Shown piece by piece: positions 39,556 to 59,601 of a DNA stretch of 59,611 nucleotides. The position numbers and the translations under genes are program-made. Origin of the DNA: an uncultured Candidatus Woesearchaeota archaeon (GTDB lineage: Archaea; Nanobdellota; Nanobdellia; Woesearchaeales; GW2011-AR9); assembly GCA_902529885.1 (NCBI GenBank), contig CABZYC010000002.1, positions 1-59,611 of the forward strand, read 5' to 3'. Below the pieces are notes generated by a model. The model worked only from the letters and a program-made list of their open reading frames with translations, searched no databases and had not been told where the DNA came from. Each line of letters starts with the position of its first letter. The first letter of the stretch is position 1.

Positions 39556-40557
39556 TCATTGACCAAAGGTGTAATATTCGTCCTCCGAAGGAAATGAAAG
39601 ATAGACATGATCCATAGTTTTACTTATGTTCAATATATTATTACAAAATGTAATAGTTGTTTCACAGTTTAAATCAGCTAATGAATAAGAGTAAGTGTTA
39701 ACTATTTTATCAGAATAGCTTGATGATACAGACACTGTACTCGGGGATACCCTTACTTCTTCAGTAAACTCAGTTATAGTAAACGTTTCATCTGGGTTTC
39801 GTACTAAAATATTGTTCTCTTCAACCTTTATTGTTTTTGGTAAATTTGCTTCGTTGACATGAAAATCTATCTCAACACCCCCAATCATTAAACATACTGT
39901 ATTCAATGAGTGGCCGCACACATCCACTTGGGAACTTAAACAACCATAATAATCAAACAAACTTTTACATGAATCATGCCCTGATGATAATCTTCCGTTT
40001 AATTCGTCAAAATTGATTTGGTCCAATTCAAAATCGTAAGGCAATATTGCTGTATTCGTATCATCTAGCTTGTAGGTAATCTCCCCAACTAAGTCCTGGC
40101 CCATAGATACACTTATTGAAGGACAATTTACAGGGGTCCTAACAGCGTATGTTCCACCACCATAACCATCAGGACTTGCATCAAAATCCACTGTTGATGT
40201 TTGTTCTGTTACAAACGCGTCTTCGCACATGGACATAACAGGTTCAACCAAATTAACCTGAACCTCCGTAGCTTGCAAGGCACACCATTCCTGATCAAAA
40301 AGTATGGGGAGTTCACCGTTGACCCCACACAAACTAATCTCTGTGTTGACCAAGGAATCCTCTTGAATTTTATCTTGCATCTCTATCGCCCATAACCTGT
40401 GCCCGGTTATCACTGTCTTCATGAAAAGTGAATGGTCAGGAGCAGTGTCGGTCTGACCACTAACTTCATAAGATATATTTCTTAATTCGGCTGCAAGAAA
40501 TAATATACTAGCAAGTACACTAATGAGTGCAAAGCTCATTAGTAAACCACGTTTCAC
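39556..40557 (-). CDS. class III signal peptide (prepilin-like) secreted protein, 333 aa, Cys-containing
   Basis: GTG start. N-terminus MKRG|LLMSFALISVLASILFLAA. The start overlaps the upstream stop (GTGA). Confidence 0.6.
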   Translation of the reverse strand: MKRGLLMSFALISVLASILFLAAELRNISYEVSGQTDTAPDHSLFMKTVITGHRLWAIEMQDKIQEDSLVNTEISLCGVNGELPILFDQEWCALQATEVQVNLVEPVMSMCEDAFVTEQTSTVDFDASPDGYGGGTYAVRTPVNCPSISVSMGQDLVGEITYKLDDTNTAILPYDFELDQINFDELNGRLSSGHDSCKSLFDYYGCLSSQVDVCGHSLNTVCLMIGGVEIDFHVNEANLPKTIKVEENNILVRNPDETFTITEFTEEVRVSPSTVSVSSSYSDKIVNTYSYSLADLNCETTITFCNNILNISKTMDHVYLSFPSEDEYYTFGQ

Positions 40558-40886
40558 TTTTTTACCCCCACAATACTCTCACCGTAACGTACACCCCTTA
40601 AATCCGATGGGCACACACCCAAAGTTGAGTCTCCCCTTGATTTACTTGTTACCATCATGGTGTTAACATCACAAGTGTAAACTGTCTCTAAGTGTTCCCC
40701 TTTAGTATTTATTAAAACGAATGAAGACGATATTTCTTCATAATCTCTAAGAACATTGTCCAAACTATGCTCTTTCATTTCAACAATTGAGTCTGTAGAC
40801 AACCCGATTACCATCCACATTAAAATCATCAAAATGATCATGACAATACTATCAATAGTAAAACTGAAAATAAAACCGCGCTTCAT
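40554..40886 (-). CDS. class III signal peptide (prepilin-like) protein, 110 aa
   Basis: N-terminus MKRG|FIFSFTIDSIVMIILMILMWMVIGL. ATGA overlaps at both ends. Confidence 0.6.
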   Translation of the reverse strand: MKRGFIFSFTIDSIVMIILMILMWMVIGLSTDSIVEMKEHSLDNVLRDYEEISSSFVLINTKGEHLETVYTCDVNTMMVTSKSRGDSTLGVCPSDLRGVRYGESIVGVKK

Positions 40887-41350
40887 TTTAACCCTGGTGA
40901 CCCCGTCACCCTTACATACCGCGGTATTAGTTTCCCATCAACATAAATGTTTGTTAAAAGAGTAATTGTCTCTAATTTGTACCGTACAAAATTGCTTGTT
41001 TGCGCAGAATGTTCTATTGTCTCACCATCGTTCGCTAATACTTCTACTAATACAGAAGGATACTGTTGAGGTATCCTTGGATCATTATTAATGCACACAT
41101 CTAAATTTTCATTAGTAAGCCGATCGAGTTCAATGCTGTTTGGCACAACAATCTTATCTTCATAAGCAACACATCTTGGTTCAGAAGTTATACGGTCATA
41201 CATCAAAGTTAAATCCATTTTGAACGGCTCTTGTGCAATTGCATCACGATAGTCTGACACCTTGCTTACTTGATAAAAAAGTATACTCCCACTTATGAAT
41301 ACCCCCATGAACACAATCATTATTAAAGCAAGTATGTTCCCTCTCTTCAT
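40883..41350 (-). CDS. class III signal peptide (prepilin-like) protein, 155 aa
   Basis: N-terminus MKRG|NILALIMIVFMGVFISGSILFY. ATGA overlaps at both ends. Confidence 0.6.
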   Translation of the reverse strand: MKRGNILALIMIVFMGVFISGSILFYQVSKVSDYRDAIAQEPFKMDLTLMYDRITSEPRCVAYEDKIVVPNSIELDRLTNENLDVCINNDPRIPQQYPSVLVEVLANDGETIEHSAQTSNFVRYKLETITLLTNIYVDGKLIPRYVRVTGSPGLK

Positions 41351-41745
41351 GATTCACACTCCATTAATTGAATTAGGTTAGATTCACGACTGATGCATAA
41401 CTTACTGAAATTGGTCGCCGTTCCAACCACTGAAATATGTTCTGGAATGTTCATCTTTGTAGAGTATGAAAATGTAAGATATCCTGATTCTGTTATTCCA
41501 ACCTTATCATCAATCAAAGACACAGTATAATTCTTTGTATCCGATAAATCAAAAGATACGTTCTGATCAAACGGGAAAGAAGCAACAGAATATACAATGT
41601 ATCTTACTTGGTTAGCAATAAAAATTTGGTCAATAGAACTACTATCAACCAATTGTATTACAACGTACCACGATAAAATTGCAATTGATACAATCATAAT
41701 TGTGATCACCATTTTTGGTTCTACTAGTTGTGTTCCTTTTTTCAT
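41347..41745 (-). CDS. class III signal peptide (prepilin-like) protein, 132 aa
   Basis: N-terminus MKKG|TQLVEPKMVITIMIVSIAILSWYVVI. Confidence 0.55.
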   Translation of the reverse strand: MKKGTQLVEPKMVITIMIVSIAILSWYVVIQLVDSSSIDQIFIANQVRYIVYSVASFPFDQNVSFDLSDTKNYTVSLIDDKVGITESGYLTFSYSTKMNIPEHISVVGTATNFSKLCISRESNLIQLMECES

Positions 41746-41754
41746 TCATACACC

Positions 41755-41826
41755 TTAATTCCTATCATCAAACTGAGCCATCTGCTTATCGTGGTCAGTG
41801 CCACCCATCTCACCTGGGATATAATC
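41755..41826 (-). repeat. 72-nt direct repeat copy 1 (3' end of paralogue A)
   Basis: 69 of 72 nt are identical to 42656-42727. Identity drops sharply beyond that. Confidence 0.9.
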
Positions 41827-42654
41827 CATCTCAGTAGTTTGTAATGTTTGGTCGGTATAATCGCCATCATCAAAGCGTTTATGATATTGGTATACGTAAA
41901 CTGTTCGATCATTATTATCAGAACTAACATACACAGTTCTACGACGAGAAAGAATTTGGTTATTTATTGCTATACCTTTCTGATTTTCCTCATCATAGTC
42001 TAAATCATAGACATATTCTCTTGTTGCTAATCGAGCTAAACCACGCTCAATAGCCCACCCGTTTGAAAATTCATAAATCTGTTTATCACCATACACACCA
42101 GAATATTCAATATGGAACCCTAAATCGTTAAAACAACGTGCATTATCATCTGACAATATTATGTTTTCACCAGATTTACTAACTTCGAAATCTTTCATGT
42201 AACACAAACAGTTATCTTTACAAGTTGAAGGGACTGCTATCTTGACTAGAATTCCGTTATTACTTGCAAAACTGCAAGCTAACCAAGTTGCACCTAAACT
42301 TAACCATTTCCAATTCCCTACATCATCCCAGCAGTCGTCCTCTGCAACATCTTCATAATTCAAATATTTTGCTGATTCATATTTAAGATATTTCATATCT
42401 AAATTTTCACTACTATCTTCAAAAAAAACAATGGCGCTAGGGTGATCAAGTATAACAATGTGGGCACGTTCACGTTCATGCTCGCCCTCACTTGATTCCA
42501 CTAAAAATTCTTGGAACTTGTCAAACCCGTACATACTTTCATCATGGAGACTGTACGCAATCAATAAACTTACAACAAGTACAAGCAACGCTATCAAAAC
42601 GTCACCTAAATGAGCCATCATCCATGAAACTTGCCCTTTCTTTCCTACTTGCAT
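41755..42654 (-). CDS. class III signal peptide (prepilin-like) protein, 299 aa, paralogue A (start at internal ATG 42654)
   Basis: N-terminus MQVGKKG|QVSWMMAHLGDVLIALLVLVVSLLIAYS aligns with the paralogue upstream. The ORF-track extension to 42891 overlaps that paralogue and reads repeat sequence in another frame. Confidence 0.6.
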   Translation of the reverse strand: MQVGKKGQVSWMMAHLGDVLIALLVLVVSLLIAYSLHDESMYGFDKFQEFLVESSEGEHERERAHIVILDHPSAIVFFEDSSENLDMKYLKYESAKYLNYEDVAEDDCWDDVGNWKWLSLGATWLACSFASNNGILVKIAVPSTCKDNCLCYMKDFEVSKSGENIILSDDNARCFNDLGFHIEYSGVYGDKQIYEFSNGWAIERGLARLATREYVYDLDYDEENQKGIAINNQILSRRRTVYVSSDNNDRTVYVYQYHKRFDDGDYTDQTLQTTEMDYIPGEMGGTDHDKQMAQFDDRN

Positions 42655-42655
42655 A

Positions 42656-42727
42656 TTAATTCCTATCATCAAACTGAGCCATCTGCTTATCATGGTCAGT
42701 GCCACCCATTTCACCTGGGACATAATC
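42656..42727 (-). repeat. 72-nt direct repeat copy 2 (3' end of paralogue B)
   Basis: 69 of 72 nt are identical to 41755-41826. It encodes ..PGEMGGTDHDKQMAQFDDRN plus the stop. Confidence 0.9.
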
Positions 42728-43459
42728 ATGCTCTGTTGACTGCGATGTTTCATCAAACAAATTTTCTCCATCTGTCCGTTTCTGAAACTGGTACACGTAC
42801 ACTGTTGAATCATCTTGGTCATAACTGATATAAACTGTTCTTCTCCTGGCTTGTATTTGGTTACTAATTGCAGCACCCTTAGAATTTTCATCTAATTCAA
42901 CATCGTACACCTCATCATTATCTGTTACTAGCTCAGCTAATCCCCTCTCAATCAGCCATCCATTTCTCAGATCATAAATATCTTTATCACCGTACACTGC
43001 AGAAAAACTTAATGGGAAACCAATATTATTGTAACATTTAGCTTTATCTTCACTTAAAGTTGTGTAAAGGCCACTTGTACTTACCTCAAAATTTTTCATA
43101 TAACACAAACAATTTTTATCACAAACTGATGGTACTTCAACCTCAATTTGACCAATATATTGATTAAGATAGTCAACCCCATCAAAGGAATTATATGAAT
43201 AAATTAAGTTCTGCTTACCTTCAAAATAAACAATAGCGCTAGGGTTATCTAAAATGACAATATGAGCATGTTCACGTTCATAATCCCCTGAATAAGAATC
43301 TTGTAGCACGTCATGAAAATCATCAAAACCAAAAAAACTTTCATCATGAAGACTGTAACTTAACAATATACCCATGGTTACAACAAATAAGGTTAATAAT
43401 ACGTCCCCTAAATGTGCAGTCATCCATTCTATCTGTGCTCTTCTCAAAATTAATCCCAA
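42656..43459 (-). CDS. class III signal peptide (prepilin-like) protein, 267 aa, paralogue B (TTG start; alternative TTG at 43447 gives MRRAQ...)
   Basis: N-terminus ..LILRRA|QIEWMTAHLGDVLLTLFVVTMGILLSYS. The C-terminal 20 aa are identical to paralogue A. Confidence 0.6.
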   Translation of the reverse strand: MGLILRRAQIEWMTAHLGDVLLTLFVVTMGILLSYSLHDESFFGFDDFHDVLQDSYSGDYEREHAHIVILDNPSAIVYFEGKQNLIYSYNSFDGVDYLNQYIGQIEVEVPSVCDKNCLCYMKNFEVSTSGLYTTLSEDKAKCYNNIGFPLSFSAVYGDKDIYDLRNGWLIERGLAELVTDNDEVYDVELDENSKGAAISNQIQARRRTVYISYDQDDSTVYVYQFQKRTDGENLFDETSQSTEHDYVPGEMGGTDHDKQMAQFDDRN

Positions 43460-43465
43460 TCACCA

Positions 43466-43711
43466 TTAATCGTCATCGTCATCATCACCAGATGACCTGT
43501 CGCATTTTGAAGTGTCACTAGTATCTGTGTCCATCTGATCAGGGATCCCATCACAATCTATATCTCTTGTAACTGCATCAAAACCTTGATTAAACCCATC
43601 TTTACCTTTACCTATGCTTCCAACTGAAAAGCCTATTAAAAGAAGTAAAATTATCACTGCTAACACCCCAAAGATGATTATCATCCATACTGCATCATTC
43701 CCTCGTTTCAT
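43466..43711 (-). CDS. class III signal peptide (prepilin-like) mini-protein, 81 aa, with acidic Asp-rich Ca-binding-like tail
   Basis: The internal ATG at 43711 forms ATGA with the upstream stop. N-terminus MKRG|NDAVWMIIIFGVLAVIILLLLIGF. Tail: DIDCDGIPDQMDTDTSDTSKCDRSSGDDDDDD. Confidence 0.6.
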   Translation of the reverse strand: MKRGNDAVWMIIIFGVLAVIILLLLIGFSVGSIGKGKDGFNQGFDAVTRDIDCDGIPDQMDTDTSDTSKCDRSSGDDDDDD

Positions 43712-44796
43712 GAAAATTTCTCCGCGTACGTTTCCACTTGACAACCCGCATTATTAGCACCGGTTAATGAATCCAATACAATATAACTATAATATCTCTG
43801 TGTCATCAAATCACCGTTATAAAATTCAGTTTTAGCGTCAACCTCAATATTATTCTCTATCTTACTCCCATAATACCAAACAGCAGCAAGCCCACCTACA
43901 ACCAAGAATGCACCTACTACACAGCCCACCCCCGTAGCACATGCACCTACACCCGCAGCTACAGTTGAACTACCAGCAGCGGCAGCTGCTGTGGTAGCGG
44001 CAGCAATTGTAGAATAAGTTACAGCTGCACCCACACCTATCGCACCCACACCAGCTAATAATTTAGCAGAATCCCATAAATATTCAGGTGGTTCGTAATG
44101 GTTCTTACTAAAATACAAAATTGCCATAACATCTTCATTACGTATTGGTTCTTGGATCATGAAAACAGTCTCACCACCAAACAACCCACCACCTTGCAGA
44201 TAATCAATATATTTTATCCCCATCCTAGGACTTTCTTCAGCTGAAATGAATTCGTGCATCTCCCATGCATTTATCATCATGTTTTGGCTTTCATTGTTAA
44301 CAAATTCACTCAAAGAAACAGTTGCACACAGAAAACAGTGTGGATCATCAGAATTCCACCCCAATACTTGGAACGCTTCATCCTTAACACTTGTGAAATA
44401 GTCGTCTTGACGTGCTTCGTTCATCATGTAACGACATTCAACCATCTTCTCTGCAATCATGTGCATAGCCTTCTCCTTCATCAAAAGGTCCGCACCATCT
44501 TTATCAAACGTTTTCTGTAGCCAGACCCAAATCCCTTTATCAGGATACAATATTGAATCCACTGTGTTACATAGGACAGGTGCCCAACTTACTTCTACAC
44601 AATTACTACCATCATCTGAACATTCAGATGTTGCTATCGAACTTGATAGTCTTGACTGTAAACTTGTACGGCATATAGAAACAGGGCTTCTATCTTCACC
44701 AAGTTCAAGTAAAGGAATTAAAATTGAAAGTACTGCGCCAATAGCAATTATTGTTAAAATCATTAAACCTAATGATTGCACTTGACCTCTTCTCAT
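43708..44796 (-). CDS. class III signal peptide (prepilin-like) protein, 362 aa, with C-terminal Gly/Ala-rich hydrophobic segment; paralogue of 44835-45827
   Basis: N-terminus MRRG|QVQSLGLMILTIIAIGAVLSILIPLL. The G/A/V-rich stretch is at residues about 246-310 (nt 43867-44061). Confidence 0.6.
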   Translation of the reverse strand: MRRGQVQSLGLMILTIIAIGAVLSILIPLLELGEDRSPVSICRTSLQSRLSSSIATSECSDDGSNCVEVSWAPVLCNTVDSILYPDKGIWVWLQKTFDKDGADLLMKEKAMHMIAEKMVECRYMMNEARQDDYFTSVKDEAFQVLGWNSDDPHCFLCATVSLSEFVNNESQNMMINAWEMHEFISAEESPRMGIKYIDYLQGGGLFGGETVFMIQEPIRNEDVMAILYFSKNHYEPPEYLWDSAKLLAGVGAIGVGAAVTYSTIAAATTAAAAAGSSTVAAGVGACATGVGCVVGAFLVVGGLAAVWYYGSKIENNIEVDAKTEFYNGDLMTQRYYSYIVLDSLTGANNAGCQVETYAEKFS

Positions 44797-44805
44797 GTAA
44801 TATAG

Positions 44806-44822
44806 ATGTTGTAATAAATAAA
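44806..44822 (-). promoter_or_regulatory. A/T-rich TATA-like element upstream of 43708-44796
   Basis: The minus strand reads gcctTTTTATTTATTacaacatctatattacATG. This lies in a 38-nt gap, one of the larger intergenic gaps in the array. Confidence 0.3.
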
Positions 44823-44834
44823 AAGGCTTTCGGT

Positions 44835-45827
44835 TTACTGCTCTTTACAACCAATATGTTGAACTGTTTCCATGTCATCTAGTATAAAATACCCATATGT
44901 CCTTGTATCAAGCATCCCCTCTGAACCATAGAAATATTCTGCTTTGATTTGAGAATTATAATTGATTCTGCCAGCAACTAGCCCTGTAGCAACAGATCCA
45001 CCTACAGCACCAACAACAACCGTAGTTATACCAACACAAGCAGGGGCGGTAGCTAAACAAACCAATCCACCGACTGCACCTATCGCAGCACCAGCCACAC
45101 CATAACTTAAACCAACTTCTGCCACTTCCATTATATCAACGGGGACACCCCCATCACTATTTCGACCCAAATAGCTGATCCCATATAACCCATCATTAAC
45201 TATATCTGTTGCAATCAGATATGCACCTTCGCCACCAAGGTTCCCACCCCCATTTAAGTAATCTGAATAAGTTATACCCTGAGATAATTCTTCATTGAGT
45301 AAGAATTGATGGAATTCTTGCGCAGTAATAGTATAATTCAATTCCTTGACTGCCACACTATAACAAGTAAAACATTTTGGTTTGTTTTCATCAAAACCGA
45401 ACAATTCCCAAAATTCGCTTCCTAAATTTGAAAAAACATCTTCATGCCGGTTATCTGTAAAAGTATATTTGCATGCTGCCAAAGACTCAGCAAATTTACG
45501 CATGACACTTTCTTTTTGACCTTCTTCTATTCTATCTTCAGTAAAAATTATACTTGAAAACCACGCATCTTGGTATATTGCAGAAGGAGTGAATTTTAGA
45601 TCTTGCTTTCTACAAGATAAACCTCCAAACGAAAACGTATTCTCTTCAGTAGTCTGCGCGGATGTTAACACCCTATTTTCTATTGAAGAACGACACATGT
45701 TCTCAATAGATTTATCGCTCATGTACCCAAAAGATTCCATCATAAAACCTAACATTGCAATCATGGAAAAACCAATCAAAAGTATGCCTGCTAAAATAAA
45801 CATTACGTTTGTTTGCGCTCTCATCAT
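44835..45827 (-). CDS. class III signal peptide (prepilin-like) protein, 330 aa, with C-terminal Gly/Ala-rich hydrophobic segment
   Basis: N-terminus MMRA|QTNVMFILAGILLIGFSMIAMLGF. The G/A/V-rich stretch is at residues about 236-286 (nt 44970-45122). ATGA overlap with the upstream gene. Confidence 0.6.
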   Translation of the reverse strand: MMRAQTNVMFILAGILLIGFSMIAMLGFMMESFGYMSDKSIENMCRSSIENRVLTSAQTTEENTFSFGGLSCRKQDLKFTPSAIYQDAWFSSIIFTEDRIEEGQKESVMRKFAESLAACKYTFTDNRHEDVFSNLGSEFWELFGFDENKPKCFTCYSVAVKELNYTITAQEFHQFLLNEELSQGITYSDYLNGGGNLGGEGAYLIATDIVNDGLYGISYLGRNSDGGVPVDIMEVAEVGLSYGVAGAAIGAVGGLVCLATAPACVGITTVVVGAVGGSVATGLVAGRINYNSQIKAEYFYGSEGMLDTRTYGYFILDDMETVQHIGCKEQ

Positions 45828-46840
45828 CCGTTACACGTAGGAATTATGCTATAATCCTCATTCCCAACAATACATTTATTCCAAGCACACCCTTCCCCAG
45901 GAGTCTTACCACTTGTATACCCTTTAGGTGTATGGCGGGGAAAATCATTAGTACCCACATATGAGCCAAAATCATCCTCAAACATTTCATCAATTGCATC
46001 AGGATGAAATCCACAATGATCATAGCTTTCTGCAGAAGTTGGACTATCATATGCAGGTATTATACAGACATATCCTTTTTTGGGACTATAAATCCAGTCA
46101 CCACTGCCAGTATCCCAAAAATCACCTAGTGCGCCCACTTCTAGTTTATAAGGTTCTTCCCCATCAAGTATACCGTCCACCACCATATAATCTTCATCCT
46201 TGTCGCTCCCTGAATTTAAAATATAAGTCCATTGATTAGTCTCATCATTATGCGTCCACCCTTTCCAATCTTGGTAAGTCATATCTTCACCTAGATCTAG
46301 TTGTTCCCAATACCAATTATGAAAGTTTTCTGCATATTCATCACCGTGACTATCAGTACCACCAACAGAACATAACACTAATCCCGGAATATTAAAAGTA
46401 TCTTTATGTTGCTGACCAATTAATGTTTGTATCCTCACCCCTGACTCAAAAGTAGTTGATGCCTCAGATTCAATAAACTTGATTGTTAATAATTCCTCAG
46501 TTAAACCAGACGGGTTTGGTAACCTATACATACAAGGTGTGTCATCACCATATCTGTATCCACCACTATATTCTCTATCCCTTACATGAGATAATGTTTT
46601 GTTTAAATCGTCTAAATACTTTCTTAGATCCCCAGATATTTTTGTGCTTGAAAGAGCTAAATTGGTGTATTGCCTTTGTGTTTCGGATAAAGTCTGATTC
46701 ACATTTCCTACAACATCCATGATACTATGTTCACCCTCACTCATAGTGTCACCAACAAAACCCTTTATTGTAAGGCCAGTTACACTACAAAAAATTAGTG
46801 ATACTAAAATTAACCAAAGTCCGGCGGCACCACGTCTCAT
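45824..46840 (-). CDS. class III signal peptide (prepilin-like) protein, 338 aa, Trp/Asp-rich
   Basis: N-terminus MRRG|AAGLWLILVSLIFCSVTGL. ATGA overlap with the upstream mini-ORF. Confidence 0.55.
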   Translation of the reverse strand: MRRGAAGLWLILVSLIFCSVTGLTIKGFVGDTMSEGEHSIMDVVGNVNQTLSETQRQYTNLALSSTKISGDLRKYLDDLNKTLSHVRDREYSGGYRYGDDTPCMYRLPNPSGLTEELLTIKFIESEASTTFESGVRIQTLIGQQHKDTFNIPGLVLCSVGGTDSHGDEYAENFHNWYWEQLDLGEDMTYQDWKGWTHNDETNQWTYILNSGSDKDEDYMVVDGILDGEEPYKLEVGALGDFWDTGSGDWIYSPKKGYVCIIPAYDSPTSAESYDHCGFHPDAIDEMFEDDFGSYVGTNDFPRHTPKGYTSGKTPGEGCAWNKCIVGNEDYSIIPTCNG

Positions 46841-53300: not shown

Positions 53301-56300
53301 TCATAGAGTTCACAACTTGCACCCACTGCAGTCGATATTTGAAACACAATGTCTGTCTCGTGCACTGCACCGCCAAATTCAGGGTATACAAAAGAGATAT
53401 CTTGTTCTAAATCGAACACTATTGTGTCTGACACATTGTTAATGTTACCATGGTCGTCAGTACACGAAGCAGTCAAATTATAAATTACGCCTGTCAACGA
53501 TGTGAAATAGTGTTCTTTATCCTCATCACGAGAGAATGATACTGTCTGAGTGTCACCTTCAGGCAACTTCTGTTCTAAAATAAAGTCACACTCAGCAGGT
53601 TCAGAAGGTTCTGTTAAATATACAGTTAACTCACTAATATCTGCGTCCGTATCACTATAATAATTCAATACAAAATCTGGGTTTTGTGTATCAACAAAAA
53701 CGTAAGTTGTTTGTAAATCTTCACGATTATAATATTTGTCTTCTGCTAAATAATATAATGTGTATGTGTCACCAGCCTCTATCACAGACTGTAAATATGT
53801 GCTATTAACCAAATTAATTTCTGCAGACTCAGAATTGATTATCCCAGAGTATTCATAATAATCAAAATTGTCTTCAGTACAACCACTAGATTGTGATGAG
53901 GTTAAACAGTAGTATAAGCCGGTCACCGGACTTATATCGTCTACAGAAGACAAGTTTATTGAAGGAAAACTGTTGCTTACAACTGCAAAACTTCCTGTGT
54001 TAATCTCAGTTATTGGCCCCTCATTATCTATCTTACACGTTTCATATTCTCCTGCAGAAAATTCGTCACAATCATTATAAGAATCGTAGTTCCCATCTTT
54101 ATAACATTCACCGTGCGTTTCGTTCGCTGCGTACCAATAACATGTTCCCCAACTACACTTGTCATTACTATTGAAAATGTCCATGTCAATACTAGACACA
54201 GGTACACCCCCAATACATTCAAGTTCGCTTGTATACTCATAACAATTTGCGTCTTGTGAAGGTGAATCACCACAATCGTTGCAAACACTATTATTAGTAT
54301 CACTAAAACACGATCCTAATTGATCACACACATCAGGAGTACAATACATGTTCTCAAATAATTGGCTGTCGGGACCACACAAATAACATTGGTCATCTTC
54401 AACATAATCTTGTGGTGCGCAATATCCTGTACCAAACTCTTCAGTGGTAGGATACAATACAGGGGAGTCATAATACGTATTATCACTCTGGTTCACCCAA
54501 AGGCAACCTTGCCCTAAACAATTATCAATCTCGCAAGAGTCTTGGGACCTATAATCAAAACAAGTTTGTACTTCATTACAATCAATACAATCGTCCACAA
54601 TTGTGTCACTATAATCATAATAACAAAAGTTCAAGTATCCAGTCTCGTTATCATAATCCCCATAACATGTTGACTCTTCATAATATAAACCAAACGGTGT
54701 AGCTAACATTGAGTCAACATTACACATTCCTGCATCTTTACAAATTGCGTTCGTTTCACCAATAATGGTACAATAATAATCTGTTGAATCTGTGTCAAGC
54801 TCAGAACAATCGTTACTTAACACCACATAATTTTCATCGTCACACGCATAGATCAATTTTCGTTCATTATCATCCGTAGTACTATCGTCAATACCACAAA
54901 AAAATTGTGACTCTTGAATATTATCACATTCCTTATCACCCGTTAACACAGTGATAGAAATTTGTTCTGTACTAATCCTTGTTTGAGGTGCACCAGCATC
55001 ATCCGCAGGACCGTCTGTATAGATTGCTTCCAATGCATAAGTGTACGAAGTTTCCCATTCAACATCATAATCAATATAGGTTCCAATGTACGGGCTTATA
55101 ACTCCTAACTTCACACCGTCTTTATACAAATTATACCCGTCAACTTCAGGACAAGGTTTTTCCCAAGACAAAAAAACTGCTTCCATTCCACGTTCTACTG
55201 ATGATTCAAAGACTTCAACAGGTTTTGTAGCGTTAGGTTGCCCATAACTACATTCGCCAATGTAACGTGAAAGGATAATGTCATAATCAAGTTCAGTAAT
55301 ACCTTCATCAACATTCAATGTTAAATCGTCAACTGAATAATCCTCAAATATAGCACTTATATTGTATGCTCCTGGTTCAAGATAGATTTCAAATGTACCG
55401 TCTGGGTACTCACTACTTTCTTTAAAAATATCGTTCACATAAATTTTAGCGCCGAATACAGGGTCAAGCACACTTAAATCACCCATTGTGTCCAAATAAG
55501 TTACGCCTTTCACTCCTTGAAACTCAATCTCTTCTAGAATAAAAGTGTCATAAAAATCCGAGTCTAATGAAAGGTCATATTCAAGGACAGTGTGATAACT
55601 TTTACTCAACGTTAAAACGTGTTCGCCAGTGTTCACATCAGTAAATTCGAAAAACCCGTCAGTATCAGTACTAACCTGGACGGTATCATTACCTTCTAAT
55701 GTTACTGCAACTTGCGATAATGGTTCACCATCAATGTCAGTTATTAAACCACTCACTGTATGTTCACCTAAGCTCCGGACAACAACATATTCTAATTCTA
55801 ATGTTTCGCCATCAAGAACGGTTATAGTATCACGGTAAGTACTATACTCTTCAGTTGTGATGGTTAATGTATAAGTGTTAGGTAATACATCATTAAACTC
55901 AAAATAGCCTGTGTCTGTAACCTCGCTACCATCATTAAGCATAATAGTAAATTCTACATCTTCACCAGACTCATTTTGGACAGTACCAGTTATTGTGGAA
56001 GTCTCAACTTCATACCCACAAATGTCTACACTACAGTATGCTGCATCAACATTAATGGTATAACTCATGCTTGATTCCTCAAGACCTTGCTGTTCTGTAC
56101 GTGACACACAATCGTTCCTAAAATCTACTAATGAACAAAAATCGCCAGTCCGACAACAACCAGGTGTACACCATTGTTCATACATATCATCTGTAACTTC
56201 AACGCCGCCTTCATACTCACACAATAAATAAGATGTATAATCGCAAGATACACTACATAATACTTCTTCACATTCATCAATTGTATCACAACTTATACCT

Positions 56301-56494
56301 GGACTAAAATAAAGGTCTAGATCGTCACAACCGTTCGTATCACAATCAGCTTGCGCATCACTTTCTAAAACGTTATCTGTACACAATAAACTTGTATCAG
56401 ATAAAGGGTAAGTATAACAACCTTCAAGCTCAGCTTGCACTAAAGGAATTAAACAAAACAGTATACACATTCCTATTAATAGTCTCACGTACAC
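50360..56494 (-). CDS. giant (2044 aa) Cys-rich multi-domain surface protein with C-terminal TM anchor and Lys-rich cytoplasmic tail
   Basis: GTG start with a Sec-type signal MYVRLLIGMCILFCLIPLVQA|ELEGCY. Domains are described in the findings. TM LGAIIVLLLSLLMMGGSSGFLSYFY (about nt 50846-50923), then a 161-aa K-rich tail. It is a single uninterrupted ORF with only short antisense shadows. Confidence 0.85.
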   Translation of the reverse strand: MYVRLLIGMCILFCLIPLVQAELEGCYTYPLSDTSLLCTDNVLESDAQADCDTNGCDDLDLYFSPGISCDTIDECEEVLCSVSCDYTSYLLCEYEGGVEVTDDMYEQWCTPGCCRTGDFCSLVDFRNDCVSRTEQQGLEESSMSYTINVDAAYCSVDICGYEVETSTITGTVQNESGEDVEFTIMLNDGSEVTDTGYFEFNDVLPNTYTLTITTEEYSTYRDTITVLDGETLELEYVVVRSLGEHTVSGLITDIDGEPLSQVAVTLEGNDTVQVSTDTDGFFEFTDVNTGEHVLTLSKSYHTVLEYDLSLDSDFYDTFILEEIEFQGVKGVTYLDTMGDLSVLDPVFGAKIYVNDIFKESSEYPDGTFEIYLEPGAYNISAIFEDYSVDDLTLNVDEGITELDYDIILSRYIGECSYGQPNATKPVEVFESSVERGMEAVFLSWEKPCPEVDGYNLYKDGVKLGVISPYIGTYIDYDVEWETSYTYALEAIYTDGPADDAGAPQTRISTEQISITVLTGDKECDNIQESQFFCGIDDSTTDDNERKLIYACDDENYVVLSNDCSELDTDSTDYYCTIIGETNAICKDAGMCNVDSMLATPFGLYYEESTCYGDYDNETGYLNFCYYDYSDTIVDDCIDCNEVQTCFDYRSQDSCEIDNCLGQGCLWVNQSDNTYYDSPVLYPTTEEFGTGYCAPQDYVEDDQCYLCGPDSQLFENMYCTPDVCDQLGSCFSDTNNSVCNDCGDSPSQDANCYEYTSELECIGGVPVSSIDMDIFNSNDKCSWGTCYWYAANETHGECYKDGNYDSYNDCDEFSAGEYETCKIDNEGPITEINTGSFAVVSNSFPSINLSSVDDISPVTGLYYCLTSSQSSGCTEDNFDYYEYSGIINSESAEINLVNSTYLQSVIEAGDTYTLYYLAEDKYYNREDLQTTYVFVDTQNPDFVLNYYSDTDADISELTVYLTEPSEPAECDFILEQKLPEGDTQTVSFSRDEDKEHYFTSLTGVIYNLTASCTDDHGNINNVSDTIVFDLEQDISFVYPEFGGAVHETDIVFQISTAVGASCELYETNDGVAWTKLAEFYTSDDENKNHSTSSIPNFYEGDYAGFLKAVCVESYTDEVMEDYFDFVVDFTAPDTQAILTEGDREELPVGDEWELYWIESVNIDFECSAEGFDCAETFYCFGEGCESRSDEKYEVYSGTVTITNTTRMCYYSTDTVENLVDVQCGEIIVEGFGINMVLPELYYYGGEQYGVSSDPVFDWVIMSKLNTEACTYDFNPEFDFDSQPEYKKFDLYEDKTNYYLYEDFPGDVLAAYDEDGGKKTLYVKCKDPLGEVGPAQKMNLEYDPSKPIILTTNVEPELVTDMRTVQLTVTTDDKTVCKFDDVTNDGYDYENMRYSFEGYDDNILNTTHVSEYSFDVDGATADFTLAVQCENGAGLVSNQETIDFSVDYAVVGYIESMSPTGIIDGKEVTLEVQTSKNALCEVDGEDFTVSGNTVHTKYIGDLVESNDPYHYIVSCLISENYDDDTIEFYVDQTPPSITSTNDGEESCGLHTVPLSVTVNEPNISHYEYNLYQGNSPGSSQLREYLGLENATDTILISSGTLNLTADIEGVTLVNGTPYYIEVLAVDSAGNVGEYVYTDGFVAGDGSSEDCAMDIFGPDIQVVTQAQQCMGSVISLECSDDAGCDDILYGTSTSIADCDPTQDKQSGIIVEQNQWLCYFASDTKGNNVTGNQKIEFEDVDGDGVADQCDICTETSAGAQVDSTGCARQETSDTTDTDGDGLPDSWEKLSTAPGCELDHEALDTDMNGVSDTDEDFDSDGLNNLEEYQAGKDPCIDDTFTEPVVETEVLDIPSSSSSSPNDNLGAIIVLLLSLLMMGGSSGFLSYFYTQMPQGRALFGSKPLYNKQVQSRQVSPQNKMANPKSMKPNVSQSKAQPLTQKKVSVGDRLRSLEENFSKRTKKSSRSKLFSSFTAKKSVEHLMRTAHEDLPVHKKVAEVTKHFEANKPEIKKQVDTNLFDKLENLSSAHKKNEVNAKDANEVFKKLRKLSK

Positions 56495-56522: not shown

Positions 56523-57446
56523 TTAGTTCCGTTTACGCCGCAATATTGCACGTAACTCTTCTGTTCGACGGATACGTTCAATTGCATTTAACTGGTCTCG
56601 CGTCTTAATCTGTGGTTTAGGTGGACGATGACCTGCCCGTGCAATTGTTGGTTTAAGAGGTTTAGCTAAAGGTTGTGATGGGCGAACATAGCTTCTTCGC
56701 TTTTTAGGTTGTGGTGCCCGATATTTTTTAGGGTTAACTTTCATCGTTACTGCTTTTGAATTGTACACACCTTTTGGTTGTTGTGACCCTTTCAATGCCA
56801 GATATAAAAAAAGTAGTAATGCGCCTAACGCGACAGGAACGTAAGGAAAAGTTACAGGGTCACCTTCAATACTATTAAGTTTGGTTATTGTATTGTTACT
56901 TACATTACTTTCTTCAGAAATGCTTGAGTTCACAATATAATTGATTAAAGGGTCACCTGTAGCCACGTAATCAATTTCGTCTTTCTGTACAATCTCATAA
57001 TCTTTTGCAGTGTTACAATCACATTCACCCTGACTATAAGAATATAATTCTGTACCTTCAGTTTGCGCTTGTATAATACAATCAAACTCTGTACTTAATT
57101 CTGTGCAAGTCTCTTCTGTTTGACAACAGCCAGTTTTACAACTATCTTTTGTAGCAATACCGTAATCGCACATTCCACGAACGTTGAGGGTACAAGTGTC
57201 TTTACAAACAACTAATTGACATTCATCTAATATTGTACAAGAATCACTGTATAAGTATACGTCATCTAACACTTTTCCTGTATACTCCGCTTCAGTTAAA
57301 GCTTCATTCAACGTTAATTCACTACAATAAGCCGCACTTTCTTTGTCAACGTAGCATCCAAGGCCGCTAACTAGCGGAACCACAAACACCATCAATACAA
57401 ACACCGTCAAGGGTACCTTTACCATCCACATCACACCAGTTTCCAT
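56523..57446 (-). CDS. 307-aa Cys-rich type I membrane protein sharing the giant protein's N-terminal module
   Basis: Signal MVKVPLTVFVLMVFVVPLVSG|LGCY (alternative ATGs at 57431 and 57425). Cys module at residues about 30-145, TM at about 200-220, and a Pro/Lys/Arg-rich tail. Confidence 0.7.
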   Translation of the reverse strand: METGVMWMVKVPLTVFVLMVFVVPLVSGLGCYVDKESAAYCSELTLNEALTEAEYTGKVLDDVYLYSDSCTILDECQLVVCKDTCTLNVRGMCDYGIATKDSCKTGCCQTEETCTELSTEFDCIIQAQTEGTELYSYSQGECDCNTAKDYEIVQKDEIDYVATGDPLINYIVNSSISEESNVSNNTITKLNSIEGDPVTFPYVPVALGALLLFLYLALKGSQQPKGVYNSKAVTMKVNPKKYRAPQPKKRRSYVRPSQPLAKPLKPTIARAGHRPPKPQIKTRDQLNAIERIRRTEELRAILRRKRN

Positions 57447-59601
57447 TTTTACATTCGTTCACAAAGATCCCTACCTCAGACAAAGTGCCGACTTCAGCAT
57501 TTTGTAACACTGAATACCACGGTTGACTATGACTAAACAATTCTTTGTCTGCTGAGATGACAGGATTTTCTATTGCTTGGTCACAACCATACGTTCCCCC
57601 ACATAAATATTTCGTGCCTTCACTATCATATTGGATACTAAATTGTTCTTGTCCAGCACACACGCCTGGCACACCACAATCTATGTCAGCACATAAAGGA
57701 ATATCTCTGTCTGAACGTTGATATTCAGTAGTCTTATCGGAACCACACACATTACCTCTTGACTGATCACAAAACGCTTTTTCTACTACTTGCACTTTAT
57801 TTTGACATAAAATGTCTGATTCATAACATACTGTACTAACATCAGCCAATGTATTCGTGTCTTGTATGCAACACGCAGTTGTAGTGTTGAACGGACTATT
57901 ATCACGTGTTTCATGCCCCCCTGAATCGTTCACATAAATTTCATGGTATGGGAAAGGAAAAGGATGCCTGGAAACTTCTTGATACGCACATTCAACAATG
58001 TCATAAGAAAGGCCTCTCGATAAATCTAATGATTCACCACACAATGACTCACTATAACCTAACTCTATTGAACCAATCTCACCAACCAAAGTGGGCCTAA
58101 AAATAGTATCTACAAAAAAATCATACATGTTTTCTTCATAATTACTAAGGTCATCACAATCAACTGATGTTTTGTAAGGTAGCACAAAACAAAAAGTGTC
58201 CGTACCCCAACTAAACGACCTAGTTTCAACCTCGTCATCACTAGTACTTTCATAACCTTCTGTATACAATACGTCCATAGAACTTAATGTACCATCATCA
58301 CTAGATACAGTAACTAAATAGGGTTGTTCAATGCTTAACATAGACGTCTCTTGACCCCTCACATCTGTTACAGTAACATCAAAATCGGTCGTCTCACCAA
58401 CCTTAATACGTATTTTTTGTGAGTCGTAACCATGATCATTAAATGAGGTTAAGATGAGCTCATAATCACCATCTTCAACACCTTCTATCTCTTGGTTGAT
58501 GAAGGGGTATTCGGAGAATGTGTCAGGTATATCTAAATTTAAACTATTACTATCATCCAATAATTCAAATGAAACATCATCTTGGTCCGGGTCGAACGAG
58601 GATGCATTAATAGTCAAATTTGTGTAAGACCTACTATCTGGCAAAATTAAATAGTCATAACCTAAACAAGCTGCTTGGCTAACATACTCTAACGCAGGAG
58701 GTCGGTTAGTAATGGCTACACGGTACACTAAGTTCTCATTTTCATCGCGGTGTATTTGGTTCGTTGAATATTCGTACACACTATAAGCACCTTGGTCACT
58801 TATTTCTAATGTGGAACCCAAAATTGAATAGGATGATACACCTTGCAATGTTTCTTCAGTCCAATTATAATGTACATCACGAGATTCGTAGTACAAGGGA
58901 TTCTTGATGGCATTATTAAAAAAACTGTACAAATTGCTAGGGTAAAAAAGATCAAAATCTTGTATGTCAAACATTTCTTCACCATCAAACATAAGAGATA
59001 ACGGGTACATTGCAGTAATTATAATACCACCACTTTCTATTTTTAAAGATAAAGTTAAATCGCCACTTTCAAACGCCCCAGCATAACCAGGTTGGGTTTC
59101 AACCTGTGTCTCAAAACAATCTAACACTTTCGTTTTTACATATTGTTCAAGGTCATCCTCAACATAAGATAACCGTAATTTTTGGCGTGCACCAAAATTG
59201 GCGGTGTCAGTGTTAACCCATTGACAATATGCCGGGGCGTTTGACGAACTTTCACAAGGATAACTTGCAGGCTCTTCATTCTCTTCATAAGTAATCCCTA
59301 AATATACTTGATCACCTTCAAACATTACACCATTAACACCATCTTGGAACTCTAAATCATTGTAAGGATAAAATAGTCGGCCACCTTTGCTTAATTCAAT
59401 TAATGCTTTGTCTAATTCGTCCAATAAACAATCTTGAATGAATAATCGTGCACCCTCTGAACGAAAAAGTTTACTATGTGTTTCATCAAGCGAAGTTTGC
59501 AATTGGTTATCCTGAACATTGTTTACTAATAACAACATAAAACCTACCCCTGCCATTAAAACTATCCCAAGTATAATGAAAACAGTTATCTGTCCTCTCA
59601 T
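57367..59601 (-). CDS. class III signal peptide (prepilin-like) large protein, 744 aa, Cys-rich C-terminal third
   Basis: N-terminus MRG|QITVFIILGIVLMAGVGFMLLLV. It is the first gene of the array seen in the window, with only 10 nt of upstream sequence available. Confidence 0.65.
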   Translation of the reverse strand: MRGQITVFIILGIVLMAGVGFMLLLVNNVQDNQLQTSLDETHSKLFRSEGARLFIQDCLLDELDKALIELSKGGRLFYPYNDLEFQDGVNGVMFEGDQVYLGITYEENEEPASYPCESSSNAPAYCQWVNTDTANFGARQKLRLSYVEDDLEQYVKTKVLDCFETQVETQPGYAGAFESGDLTLSLKIESGGIIITAMYPLSLMFDGEEMFDIQDFDLFYPSNLYSFFNNAIKNPLYYESRDVHYNWTEETLQGVSSYSILGSTLEISDQGAYSVYEYSTNQIHRDENENLVYRVAITNRPPALEYVSQAACLGYDYLILPDSRSYTNLTINASSFDPDQDDVSFELLDDSNSLNLDIPDTFSEYPFINQEIEGVEDGDYELILTSFNDHGYDSQKIRIKVGETTDFDVTVTDVRGQETSMLSIEQPYLVTVSSDDGTLSSMDVLYTEGYESTSDDEVETRSFSWGTDTFCFVLPYKTSVDCDDLSNYEENMYDFFVDTIFRPTLVGEIGSIELGYSESLCGESLDLSRGLSYDIVECAYQEVSRHPFPFPYHEIYVNDSGGHETRDNSPFNTTTACCIQDTNTLADVSTVCYESDILCQNKVQVVEKAFCDQSRGNVCGSDKTTEYQRSDRDIPLCADIDCGVPGVCAGQEQFSIQYDSEGTKYLCGGTYGCDQAIENPVISADKELFSHSQPWYSVLQNAEVGTLSEVGIFVNECKNGNWCDVDGKGTLDGVCIDGVCGSAS

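What the first reader, a model, noticed from the sequence alone, without database searches (positions are those of the whole stretch)
39556..59601. 20-kb co-directional operon: 19 class III (prepilin-type) signal peptide proteins plus two Cys-rich anchored surface proteins, none assignable to a known family
**Seen in the sequence**
- Every gene from 59601 down to 39556 is on the minus strand.
- 19 of the 21 products begin with a short basic segment ending in K/R-G/A, followed directly by about 20 hydrophobic residues. The N-termini are MRG|Q, MKRG|M, MKG|Q, TKA|Q, MRG|Q, KRA|Q, EKG|Q, MKKG|E, MKRG|E, MRRG|A, MRA|Q, MRRG|Q, MKRG|N, RRA|Q, KKG|Q, MKKG|T, MKRG|N, MKRG|F and MKRG|L.
- This matches the archaeal class III signal peptide pattern ([KR][GA] then a hydrophobic core) cleaved by PibD/FlaK/EppA-type prepilin peptidases.
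- Product sizes range from 37 to 744 aa, and most contain several Cys.
- I recognise no catalytic or transporter motif in any of them.

**Inference**
- So many putative pilin-like subunits in one transcription unit, interleaved with a 2044-aa adhesin-like protein, is not the layout of the described archaeal pilus or archaellum loci I know (fla/arl, aap, ups, epd). Those have 1-5 pilins next to an ATPase and platform protein.
- In a small-genome, DPANN-like archaeon, a multi-subunit surface filament or attachment organelle is an attractive hypothesis, for example for contact with a host cell.
Basis: partly seen in the sequence, partly recalled or inferred. Interest (0 to 1): 0.92.

Follow-up and report, generated by a model that had tools for sequence, protein, structure and literature searches.

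The report
Conserved DPANN pilin-like surface gene cluster
This is a 20-kb block of genes, conserved across many tiny Woesearchaeota-type (DPANN) archaea, that encodes 19 pilin-like surface proteins plus two giant cysteine-rich membrane proteins; it probably builds a surface appendage, but the motor genes needed to assemble one are not nearby.

Summary
Twenty-one tightly packed minus-strand genes fill 39556-59601. Nineteen start with [KR][GA] followed by a hydrophobic helix, against 0 of 46 other ORFs in the window. Orthologues keep the site through G/A and K/R swaps. Ten have the [KR][GA]|Q site typical of EppA-cleaved Methanococcus Epd pilins. All 21 proteins have an even number of cysteines, which suggests disulfide-bonded extracellular domains.

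The locus is not a one-off. RadA places the organism in Nanoarchaeota/Woesearchaeota. The same gene order recurs in about 25 long metagenome contigs (421 JGI relatives), always next to RPA and YdjM. The g4, g5 and g6 families have many 50%-identity clusters but no Pfam, NCBIfam or PDB match. The g5 model (pLDDT 92) has a 46-residue N-terminal helix and a head with no Foldseek match.

No assembly ATPase, platform protein or prepilin peptidase lies in the window or in any relative's locus.

Best reading (confidence about 0.5): this is the subunit-and-adhesin module of a type-IV-filament-like apparatus whose machinery is encoded elsewhere. The main rival is a non-filament envelope scaffold around the giant anchored proteins.

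It is a new variant of a known kind: DPANN "dark-matter" pilin islands have been predicted before.

The parts
57367..59601 (-). g1: 744-aa class III-type protein (MRG|QITVF...), 24 Cys. It is the first gene of the cluster on this contig.
   Evidence: Homologues are 59-95% identical. Orthologues keep [GA]|Q(I/V)T(I/V)F(M/I)ILG. No Pfam or NCBIfam hit.
56523..57446 (-). g2: 307-aa Cys-rich type I membrane protein, with a Sec signal peptide, a C-terminal transmembrane helix and a basic tail of about 100 aa.
   Evidence: Its N-terminal domain is 28% identical to that of g3 over 134 aa. It sits at the same position in relatives.
50360..56494 (-). g3: 2044-aa giant Cys-rich (80 Cys) anchored surface protein. 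It has a Sec signal peptide, two CarboxypepD_reg domains, TSP3-like repeats, a C-terminal transmembrane helix and a Lys-rich cytoplasmic tail of about 190 aa.
   Evidence: Orthologues of 2030-2290 aa are present in every long related locus. No PDB sequence match.
49866..50363 (-). g4: 165-aa class III-type protein (MKRG|MAVQQVF...). It is the most conserved small subunit.
   Evidence: 88% identical in L001 and L004. Family consensus KKG|MGIGQVFIFIIAA, with a conserved Cys pair. All 46 orthologues have an even Cys count.
48766..49869 (-). g5: 367-aa class III-type protein (MKG|QVTVQFNW...). It has a long N-terminal helix, a beta-rich head and a C-terminal helical bundle.
   Evidence: More than 100 family clusters at 26-48% identity. 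N-terminal consensus [GA]|Q..TF(N/H)WIY. AF2 model pLDDT 92, with a helix at residues 10-55. No Foldseek, PDB or Pfam match.
48246..48815 (-). g6: 189-aa class III-type protein (TKA|QMQMMES...).
   Evidence: Q+1 and E+6 are invariant, and there is an invariant Cys pair. Related to g7 over about 65 N-terminal residues (hhalign 90%).
47740..48249 (-). g7: 169-aa class III-type protein (MRG|QQEIIG...).
   Evidence: Q+1, E+3 and six Cys are invariant in 38 orthologues.
47344..47685 (-). g8: 113-aa class III-type protein (VKRA|QGMSLNVIIIAALAL...). Small, and a candidate filament subunit.
   Evidence: 40 of 40 orthologues pass the motif rule. Four Cys are invariant. There is a weak, sub-threshold hit to a prepilin N-terminal model (E 0.031).
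47084..47335 (-). g9: 83-aa class III-type protein with a head of 6 Cys.
   Evidence: 30 of 32 orthologues pass the motif rule. Near-threshold hit to Inhibitor_I68 (24.6 bits against 25).
46971..47084 (-). g10: 37-aa headless mini-pilin-like protein (MKKG|EMPG...).
   Evidence: A pair of 38-62-aa class III ORFs is conserved at this position in most relatives.
46837..46971 (-). g11: 44-aa headless mini-pilin-like protein (MKRG|EVFWY...).
   Evidence: The type B consensus is MNKKG|MEMWQLVL...LFxKxGxLL.
45824..46840 (-). g12: 338-aa protein (MRRG|AAGLW...), fast-evolving.
   Evidence: Only 28-31% identical to L004, where RadA is 93% identical. Orthologues often fail the strict motif rule.
43708..45827 (-). 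g13 (44835-45827, 330 aa) and g14 (43708-44796, 362 aa): a paralogous class III-type pair with a Gly/Ala-rich hydrophobic region near the C-terminus.
   Evidence: 27% identical to each other. Alignment A1 shows invariant Cys residues and a GGG motif. The AF2 model is unusable (pLDDT 35).
43466..43711 (-). g15: 81-aa class III-type protein (MKRG|NDAVWM...) with an acidic tail.
   Evidence: A class III ORF of about 100 aa sits at this position in relatives.
41755..43459 (-). g16 (42656-43459, 267 aa) and g17 (41755-42654, 299 aa): a tandem duplicate pair with weaker class III-like N-termini.
   Evidence: 52% identical to each other. Direct DNA repeats at 41737-41991 / 42638-42892 and 42414-42569 / 43216-43371. 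L004 has a single copy that lacks G/A at the site.
39556..41745 (-). g18 (41347-41745, 132 aa), g19 (40883-41350, 155 aa), g20 (40554-40886, 110 aa) and g21 (39556-40557, 333 aa): the distal class III-type proteins, joined by 4-nt overlaps.
   Evidence: 34-57% identical to L004. The positions are conserved in relatives and are followed by RPA and YdjM.

Best explanation
The region is the subunit-and-adhesin module of a type-IV-filament-like (TFF) surface apparatus. It is conserved across a Woesearchaeota/Nanoarchaeota (DPANN) lineage.

Proposed mechanism
- Shown: the 19 proteins carry class III-type signal peptides, and their extracellular parts look disulfide-bonded.
- Inferred: they are exported through Sec. 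A prepilin peptidase encoded elsewhere cuts them after the G/A. The ten with Q at +1 point to an EppA-like enzyme.
- Inferred: they stay in the membrane through their conserved hydrophobic N-terminal helices. A FlaI/PilB-type ATPase and a FlaJ/TadC-type platform, also encoded elsewhere, then extract and polymerise them.
- Inferred by analogy: the conserved core (g1 and g4-g7, next to the giant protein g3) acts like a bacterial minor-pilin priming or tip complex. In that analogy g5 is the large GspK/PilX-like member.
- Inferred: the small subunits (g8, g9 and the headless g10 and g11) are candidates for the shaft.
- Inferred: the fast-evolving distal genes (g12-g21) vary the exposed surface.
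- Inferred: g2 and g3 are membrane-anchored Cys-rich partners or adhesins at the base of the structure.
- Speculative: the apparatus mediates contact with a host cell.
For: The signal peptide motif
- The motif is present in 19 of 21 cluster genes and in 0 of 46 other ORFs.
- The cleavage-site residues are held by selection across orthologues, through G/A and K/R swaps. Across more than 100 family clusters the consensus is [GA]|Q.
- The sites match characterised Epd pilins cleaved by EppA (RAQI, KGQV, KGQL, KGQI).

Pilin-like sequence behaviour
- The H-domains are more conserved than the heads. For g5 the N-terminus is 91-97% identical against 68-73% for the rest. For g8 the figures are 89% and 57%.
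- Polar or acidic residues inside the H-domain are invariant: E+6 in g6, E+3 in g7 and Q+5 in g4.
- The g5 model has a 46-residue N-terminal helix leading into a beta-rich head (pLDDT 92).

Extracellular location
- All 21 proteins have even Cys counts. Among orthologues the split is 370 even to 40 odd.

Conservation of the cluster
- The gene order is the same in about 25 long contigs.
- A pair of mini-pilin-like ORFs is conserved in position.
- L063 and L089 keep only g1 and g3-g7, which points to a core module.

Precedents in the literature
- Pilin loci unlinked to the ATPase and platform genes.
- TFF System 1 in DPANN, with many pilins and an adhesin.
- DPANN pilin islands in genomic dark matter.
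Against: - No ATPase, platform protein or A24 peptidase lies in the 59.6-kb contig or in 93 related loci. Whether the genome has them at all could not be tested.
- No profile matches any pilin or class III model, or any solved pilin.
- The g5 head has no pilin-like Foldseek hit.
- g3 and g2 are anchored by transmembrane helices with long cytoplasmic tails. That is unlike the tip adhesin PilY1.
- g13 and g14 have a second hydrophobic region, which is atypical for pilins.
- KKRG also occurs in the Sec signal peptide of g3 orthologues.
- Nineteen different subunits is far more than any characterised filament uses.
Confidence: 0.5

Rival explanations
1. A non-filament envelope scaffold. The class III-like N-terminal helices, cleaved or not, serve only as membrane anchors. 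They hold a multi-protein, disulfide-rich complex that organises or supports the giant anchored proteins g3, g2 and g0. Together these would form an S-layer-like or pseudo-periplasmic canopy that is a basic part of this lineage's cell envelope.
For: - The cluster is single-copy, syntenic and fixed beside the housekeeping genes RPA, YdjM and RadA across the lineage. That is what a core envelope structure would look like.
- g3 is always present, is about 2100 aa long, and is anchored by a transmembrane helix with a cytoplasmic tail.
- S-layer-like, Cys-containing, C-terminally anchored proteins are recurrent components of archaeal T4P loci.
- No assembly ATPase is linked to the cluster in any locus.
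Against: - A plain membrane anchor would not need the invariant [GA]|Q site, nor conserved charged residues inside the helix.
- A pair of 37-60-aa headless proteins has no obvious role in a scaffold.
- g3 has no recognised S-layer domain.
Confidence: 0.28
2. Ordinary Sec signal anchors. The proteins are unrelated bitopic membrane or secreted proteins. The K/R-G/A motif is just the usual n-region of signal sequences in this lineage, with no prepilin-type processing.
For: - Most g3 orthologues combine KKRG with a normal h-region, an AxA-like c-region and a conserved mature N-terminus GCY. That is a class I signal peptide.
- No class III or pilin model is hit.
- The g12 and g19 orthologues often lack the motif.
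Against: - Other N-terminally hydrophobic proteins in the window lack the motif: SecD, SecF, MscS, the M50 protease, YdjM and the lipoprotein cyclophilin.
- The H-domains are conserved and continue as one long helix into the head.
- Apart from g2 and g3, the products show no obvious AxA-type site after the h-region.
- Q at +1 is nearly invariant over hundreds of divergent sequences.
Confidence: 0.12
3. A bindosome-like set of solute-binding or nutrient-scavenging proteins that use class III signal peptides.
For: Class III signal peptides on substrate-binding proteins are widespread in archaea.
Against: - No solute-binding-protein domain was found in any of the 19 proteins.
- No ABC transporter lies in the cluster.
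- The g5 fold matches no binding protein.
Confidence: 0.03

Closest known systems
Methanococcus maripaludis Epd pilus cluster (archaeal TFF 'System 1')
   Same: - Several pilins and minor pilins sit in one transcription unit.
- The processing sites are KGQ or RAQ, with Q required at +1 by EppA.
- The major pilin is headless.
- Adhesin-like proteins are associated with the cluster.
- System 1 is reported in DPANN.
   Different: - The 11-gene Epd cluster contains the ATPase, two platform genes and the peptidase. Here none is present.
- The Epd cluster has about 5 pilins, against 19 here.
- There is no detectable sequence homology.
- The giant partners here are anchored by transmembrane helices.
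Bacterial minor-pilin plus PilY1 operons (P. aeruginosa fimU-pilVWXY1E; M. xanthus clusters)
   Same: - The operon encodes several different pilin-like proteins and one very large adhesin.
- It is separate from the pilB/pilC/pilD genes.
- It forms a priming or tip complex (PMC7541494, abstract seen).
- The conserved core here (g4-g7 plus g3) has a similar composition: four subunits, one of them large.
   Different: - Those operons are bacterial. They have 4-5 pilins and a PilY1 that is not membrane-anchored.
- No sequence or structural match was found.
- The resemblance is one of organisation only.
DPANN 'dark matter' type IV pili islands (Makarova, Wolf and Koonin 2019, Fig. 2A)
   Same: - The genomes are DPANN.
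- The islands are runs of hypothetical proteins with signal peptides, interpreted as highly diverged pilins next to surface proteins.
   Different: - The published islands were recognised through neighbouring ATPase and TadC genes. This cluster has none within 10 kb in any locus.
- This cluster is a fixed, syntenic set of about 20 genes.
Haloferax volcanii PilA1-6 and other stand-alone archaeal pilin loci
   Same: The pilin genes are not co-located or co-regulated with pilB/pilC. One machinery serves several sets of pilins.
   Different: Those are single, paralogous major pilins of a known family (PilA, arCOG02416). They are not a 19-gene heterogeneous operon with giant partners.

Membership tests
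Archaeal class III (prepilin-type) signal peptide proteins | G/A/S at position -1 of the processing site | tested here: met
   All 19 have G or A at -1. Orthologues keep it through G<->A swaps. The criterion is taken from PMC4371748.
Archaeal class III (prepilin-type) signal peptide proteins | Charged residue at position -2 | tested here: met
   All 19 in the window have K or R at -2. In distant family members -2 is sometimes Q, S, T, H or N.
Archaeal class III (prepilin-type) signal peptide proteins | Processing site precedes a hydrophobic H-domain of about 20 residues near the N-terminus | tested here: met
   The feature is weaker for g16 and g17, whose H-domain is interrupted by His and Asp.
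Archaeal class III (prepilin-type) signal peptide proteins | Match to curated N-terminal models (Pfam or NCBIfam class III signal / archaeal pilin N-terminal models) | tested here: not met
   No such hit at E <= 1 for any of the proteins, apart from one sub-threshold g8 hit (E 0.031). None among 103 members of the g5 family.
Archaeal class III (prepilin-type) signal peptide proteins | Actual cleavage by a PibD-, FlaK- or EppA-type peptidase | not testable with these tools
   This needs N-terminal proteomics or an in vitro cleavage assay.
EppA-type (Epd-like) pilins | Conserved Gln at +1 | tested here: met
   Ten of 19 have Q at +1: g1, g5-g9, g13, g14, g16 and g17. Q at +1 is invariant or nearly so in the g5, g6, g7 and g8 families.
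Type IV filament (TFF) locus (archaellum, Aap, Ups, Epd) | Secretion ATPase (FlaI/PilB, T2SSE) in the locus | tested here: not met
   None in the window. None appears in the Pfam census of 107 flanking ORFs (only the first 25 of 59 matched families were listed). A Walker-A scan of 364,000 aa from 93 loci also found none.
Type IV filament (TFF) locus (archaellum, Aap, Ups, Epd) | Platform protein (FlaJ/TadC, T2SSF) and A24 prepilin peptidase in the locus | tested here: not met
   Whether they exist elsewhere in the genome could not be examined.
Type IV pilin fold | N-terminal helix of about 50 residues packed on a beta-sheet head | tested here: inconclusive
   The g5 model has a helix at residues 10-55 and then a beta-rich domain, plus an extra helical bundle. 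No solved pilin is recovered by Foldseek (best E 0.09). Only one subunit could be modelled well.
Bindosome-type substrate-binding proteins with class III signal peptides | Solute-binding-protein domain | tested here: not met
   No solute-binding-protein family is hit.
Archaeal S-layer proteins (for g3) | Recognised S-layer domain or sorting signal (for example PGF-CTERM) | tested here: not met
   Only CarboxypepD_reg and TSP3-like hits were found. The C-terminus is a transmembrane helix followed by a tail of about 190 aa.

The most novel reading that the evidence does not exclude
The cluster encodes a lineage-defining organelle of Woesearchaeota-type DPANN archaea, derived from type IV filaments. 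It would be built from an unprecedented number (about 15-19) of distinct pilin-like subunits from families with no known relatives. At least one of them has a new fold. The organelle would be coupled to giant disulfide-rich transmembrane proteins whose cytoplasmic tails link it to the cell interior. It would form the physical interface through which these ultra-small cells attach to, and exchange material with, their hosts.
Probability: 0.25. Interest if true: 0.85.

Novelty: new variant of a known kind. Interest (0 to 1): 0.62.

Why it matters
How DPANN archaea recognise and hold on to host cells is an open question. Most of their surface proteins are unannotated.

This cluster gives a concrete, conserved and easily recognised set of candidate genes:
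- Relatives were found on 421 JGI metagenome contigs.
- The g4-g9 families together have 1,243 representative clusters at E <= 1e-10.

It also defines several protein families that are absent from Pfam and NCBIfam, one of them with a confidently predicted fold that has no solved counterpart.

The cluster makes several experiments possible:
- Metaproteomics for N-termini cleaved after G/A.
- Cryo-ET of Woesearchaeota enrichment cultures.
- Complex prediction for g4-g9.

The sharp contrast in evolutionary rate is also informative. Against relative L004, RadA is 93% identical while the distal subunits are 28-38% identical. That is the pattern expected for proteins at a host interface.

Tried and rejected
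- Exact look-up of g1 found nothing on record.
- A GTDB scan with g1 found no relative. The 8-mer patterns from a single sequence were probably too strict.
- A fusion of 18 proteins as a query for the search for homologous proteins timed out. The same idea did work with the exhaustive HMMER search.
- AlphaFold2 on g14 with 8 sequences gave pLDDT 35, which is unusable.
- Foldseek of the g5 model against the PDB and BFVD gave nothing below E 0.09.
- Profile searches of the g4, g5, g6, g7 and g8 families, and of g3, against PDB sequences gave only noise.
- hhalign between families found only g6-g7 related beyond the signal peptide.
- A bindosome reading was rejected because no solute-binding-protein domain is present.
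- A mobile-element or viral origin was rejected. The GC content matches the rest of the contig, the position beside RPA and RadA is fixed in all relatives, and no viral structural match was found.
- Not run: the real FlaFind, SignalP and DeepTMHMM programs. I applied the published class III criteria with my own rule.

Full report
**1. What is in the sequence**

The interval 39556-59601 holds 21 minus-strand genes, which I call g1 to g21. Thirteen junctions are overlaps of 4 or 1 nt, and the largest gap is 54 nt. Co-transcription, perhaps with a few internal promoters, is therefore plausible.

After choosing start codons that fit the neighbouring stop codons, 19 products begin with a short basic segment ending in [KR][GA]. 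A strongly hydrophobic stretch follows directly.

g2 (307 aa) and g3 (2044 aa) differ. They have Sec-type signal peptides and Cys-rich ectodomains. Each also has a C-terminal transmembrane helix and a long basic cytoplasmic tail. g3 carries two CarboxypepD_reg domains above the Pfam threshold, and TSP3-like repeats.

The motif is not a chance feature or a compositional habit of this contig:
- None of the 46 other ORFs has it at the extreme N-terminus. These include eight or nine with hydrophobic N-termini, such as SecD, SecF, MscS, the M50 protease, YdjM and a lipoprotein cyclophilin. Fisher p = 9e-15.
- All 21 proteins have an even number of cysteines. For the 19 with any Cys, the chance of this is about 2e-6.
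- The parity holds in orthologues: 370 even against 40 odd.
- Cys content is 3.0%, against 1.26% in the contig's cytoplasmic proteins.

Together these point to disulfide-bonded extracytoplasmic domains.

**2. Context and organism**

The rest of the window is archaeal housekeeping. It includes ribosomal proteins L2, L3 and L4, Nop5, PAN, eRF1, SecD/F and topoisomerase VI A/B. It also includes RIO kinase, a primase Toprim protein, HerA, a Cas4-like nuclease, eIF-5A, eIF-1A, PEP synthase, TRAM, RadA, YdjM and RPA. There is no T2SSE/FlaI ATPase, no FlaJ/TadC platform and no A24 peptidase.

The window is a whole 59,611-bp NCBI contig. The cluster is therefore cut by the contig end, 10 nt upstream of g1.

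RadA is 75% identical to MAGs labelled Candidatus Nanoarchaeia and Nanoarchaeota, and 65% identical to a Woesearchaeota MAG. A member of the g6 family is a "hypothetical protein [Candidatus Woesearchaeota archaeon]". The DPANN assignment is supported.

**3. Relatives and synteny**

Word-indexed searches found only 3 homologues of g1 and 6 of g14, all from metagenomes. Their contigs (L001-L005) show the same gene order.

In L002 and L001 another giant Cys-rich protein (g0, more than 1294 aa) lies upstream of g1. In L001 it is preceded by two small genes and then by divergently transcribed ThiS, ThiF, TBP and MCM genes.

An exhaustive HMMER search with a g4-g11 concatenate changed the picture. 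It returned 3365 representative proteins at E <= 1e-3, and 1243 at E <= 1e-10. The g5 family alone has more than 100 full-length clusters at 26-48% identity. g4 and g6 have their own families.

A scan of JGI metagenomes found 421 relatives of g5. In about 25 long loci, some on contigs of 0.3-1.6 Mb, the order is essentially fixed:
- g1, g2, g3 (2030-2290 aa), g4, g5, g6, g7, g8, g9;
- two tiny class III ORFs;
- ORFs of about 270, 300, 100, 220, 140, 165, 170 and 250-520 aa;
- then RPA and YdjM.

L063 and L089 keep only g1 and g3-g7, which suggests a core module.

The same layout appears on a 780-kb NCBI contig (L011) and in L012, where g5 identity falls to 25%.

Evolutionary rates differ sharply along the cluster. 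The figures below compare the window with L004:

| Protein | Identity to L004 |
|---|---|
| RadA | 93% |
| g4 | 88% |
| g3 | 67-84%, by segment |
| g12, g16, g17, g20, g21 | 28-38% |

**4. Evidence that the N-termini are class III signals**

The published criteria are G/A/S at -1, a charged residue at -2 (critical in archaea), and a processing site before the H-domain. EppA substrates also have Q at +1. The characterised Epd sites are RAQI, KGQV, KGQL and KGQI (PMC4371748).

How the cluster compares:
- All 19 window proteins meet the first three criteria.
- Ten have Q at +1, for example RG|QI, KG|QV, RA|QI and KG|QA.
- Orthologues keep the site through exactly the permitted swaps.
- Family-wide consensus sequences are:
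  - g5: [GA]|Q(I/V)x(I/V)TF(N/H)WIY
  - g4: KKG|MGIGQVFIF
  - g6: [KR][GA]|QMxMTETIAVLFIFF
  - g7: KKG|QMEMIGLVVIV
  - g8: KKG|QGLSLNVIIVAALAL
- Q+1 is invariant in g6 and g7, E+6 in g6 and E+3 in g7. The g4 consensus has Q at +5. Conserved polar residues in an otherwise hydrophobic helix are a pilin trait, not an anchor trait.
- N-terminal helices are more conserved than the heads.
- With a 103-sequence alignment, AlphaFold2 gives g5 a confident model (pLDDT 92, pTM 0.88). Residues 10-55 form one helix. A beta-rich domain and a helical bundle follow.

Caveats:
- No curated class III or pilin model is matched.
- No solved pilin is matched by sequence or by fold.
- g12 and g19 orthologues often fail the rule.
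- The Sec signal peptide of most g3 orthologues also contains KKRG, so KRG alone is not diagnostic.

**5. Assembly machinery**

None was found in the contig or in any related locus. A Pfam census of 107 non-cluster ORFs of at least 200 aa gave RPA (22 members) and scattered housekeeping singletons. Only the first 25 of the 59 matched families were listed. A Walker-A scan of 364,000 aa found only ABC transporters.

The tools did not let me read the rest of any genome that carries the cluster. Whether the machinery exists elsewhere in these genomes remains untested.

The literature supports that it could. TFF ATPases occur in nanoarchaea without identified cognate pilins, and one machinery can serve several pilin sets (PMC4858521). 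TFF System 1 and other TFF classes occur in DPANN (bioRxiv 10.64898/2026.04.22.720090).

**6. Interpretation**

The most likely reading (confidence about 0.5) is a subunit-and-adhesin module of a TFF-type apparatus whose motor and peptidase are encoded elsewhere.

The conserved core is four different class III proteins, one of them large, beside a giant surface protein. In organisation only, this resembles bacterial minor-pilin plus PilY1 operons. The conserved pair of 37-60-aa headless proteins and the small g8 and g9 are candidates for the shaft. They recall the headless Epd and Flp pilins.

Several points count against a classical long pilus:
- g2 and g3 have transmembrane anchors and cytoplasmic tails.
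- g13 and g14 have a second hydrophobic region.
- The number of distinct subunits is very large.

For these reasons a non-filament envelope scaffold is a serious rival (about 0.28). Plain Sec signal anchors (about 0.12) and a bindosome (about 0.03) are less likely.

**7. Novelty**

The kind is known. Archaeal class III pilin sets, stand-alone pilin loci and DPANN dark-matter pilin islands next to surface proteins have all been described (PMC6393860).

What is new:
- This specific, fixed architecture of about 20 genes with no linked machinery.
- Its breadth across a DPANN lineage.
- Families with no database coverage.
- A confidently predicted subunit fold with no solved counterpart.

I rate it a new variant of a known kind, with interest about 0.6.

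Noticed in passing
window 29278-29703 (+) and 21583-22188 (-): A bacterial-type lipoprotein signal peptidase II (Peptidase_A8/LspA, E 1.9e-29) sits on this archaeal contig. The cyclophilin at 21583-22188 starts with a lipobox-like sequence, ...IILIFMLSAC|S. This suggests a bacterial-style lipoprotein pathway in a DPANN archaeon.
   Followed up: partly
window 41737-43371: g16 and g17 are a tandem duplication. Direct repeats lie at 41737-41991 / 42638-42892 (73% identical) and 42414-42569 / 43216-43371 (71%). The C-terminal 19 residues (GEMGGTDHDKQMAQFDDRN) are identical. The more distant relative L004 has a single copy.
   Followed up: yes
window 59601-59611; L002 1-3885; L001 4379-9584: The window is a complete contig that ends 10 nt upstream of g1. 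In close relatives a further giant Cys-rich protein (more than 1294 aa) precedes g1, so the cluster is probably truncated here. In L001 that gene is broken by frameshifts, probably from long-read assembly errors.
   Followed up: partly
window 36886-37815 (RadA) compared with 39556-46840: Rates of evolution differ greatly between this contig and relative L004. RadA is 93% identical, g4 is 88%, and g12, g16, g17, g20 and g21 are only 28-38%.
   Followed up: partly
window 47084-47335 (g9): The 6-Cys head of g9 scores just below the Pfam threshold for carboxypeptidase inhibitor I68 (24.6 bits against 25, E 3.3e-5). It may be a small disulfide-knot domain.
   Followed up: no
L012-L089, g3 orthologues: Most orthologues of the giant protein g3 begin M..KKRG, followed by an h-region and an AxA-like site, and then a conserved mature N-terminus GCY(x)YP. 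The window's own g3 lacks the KRG.
   Followed up: partly
window 18369-19007 (+) and 14513-15711 (-): An adenylate/guanylate cyclase domain protein lies at 18369-19007. A MinD/ParA-type ATPase lies next to a small membrane protein of unknown family at 14513-15711. Neither is linked to the cluster.
   Followed up: no
L006 (CAZOPZ010000021.1): This GTDB record is titled 'uncultured Methanosarcinales archaeon'. Its RadA is 75% identical to this Nanoarchaeota-type contig, and a run of class III ORFs with a g13-like gene lies upstream of RadA. The taxonomic label looks wrong.
   Followed up: no
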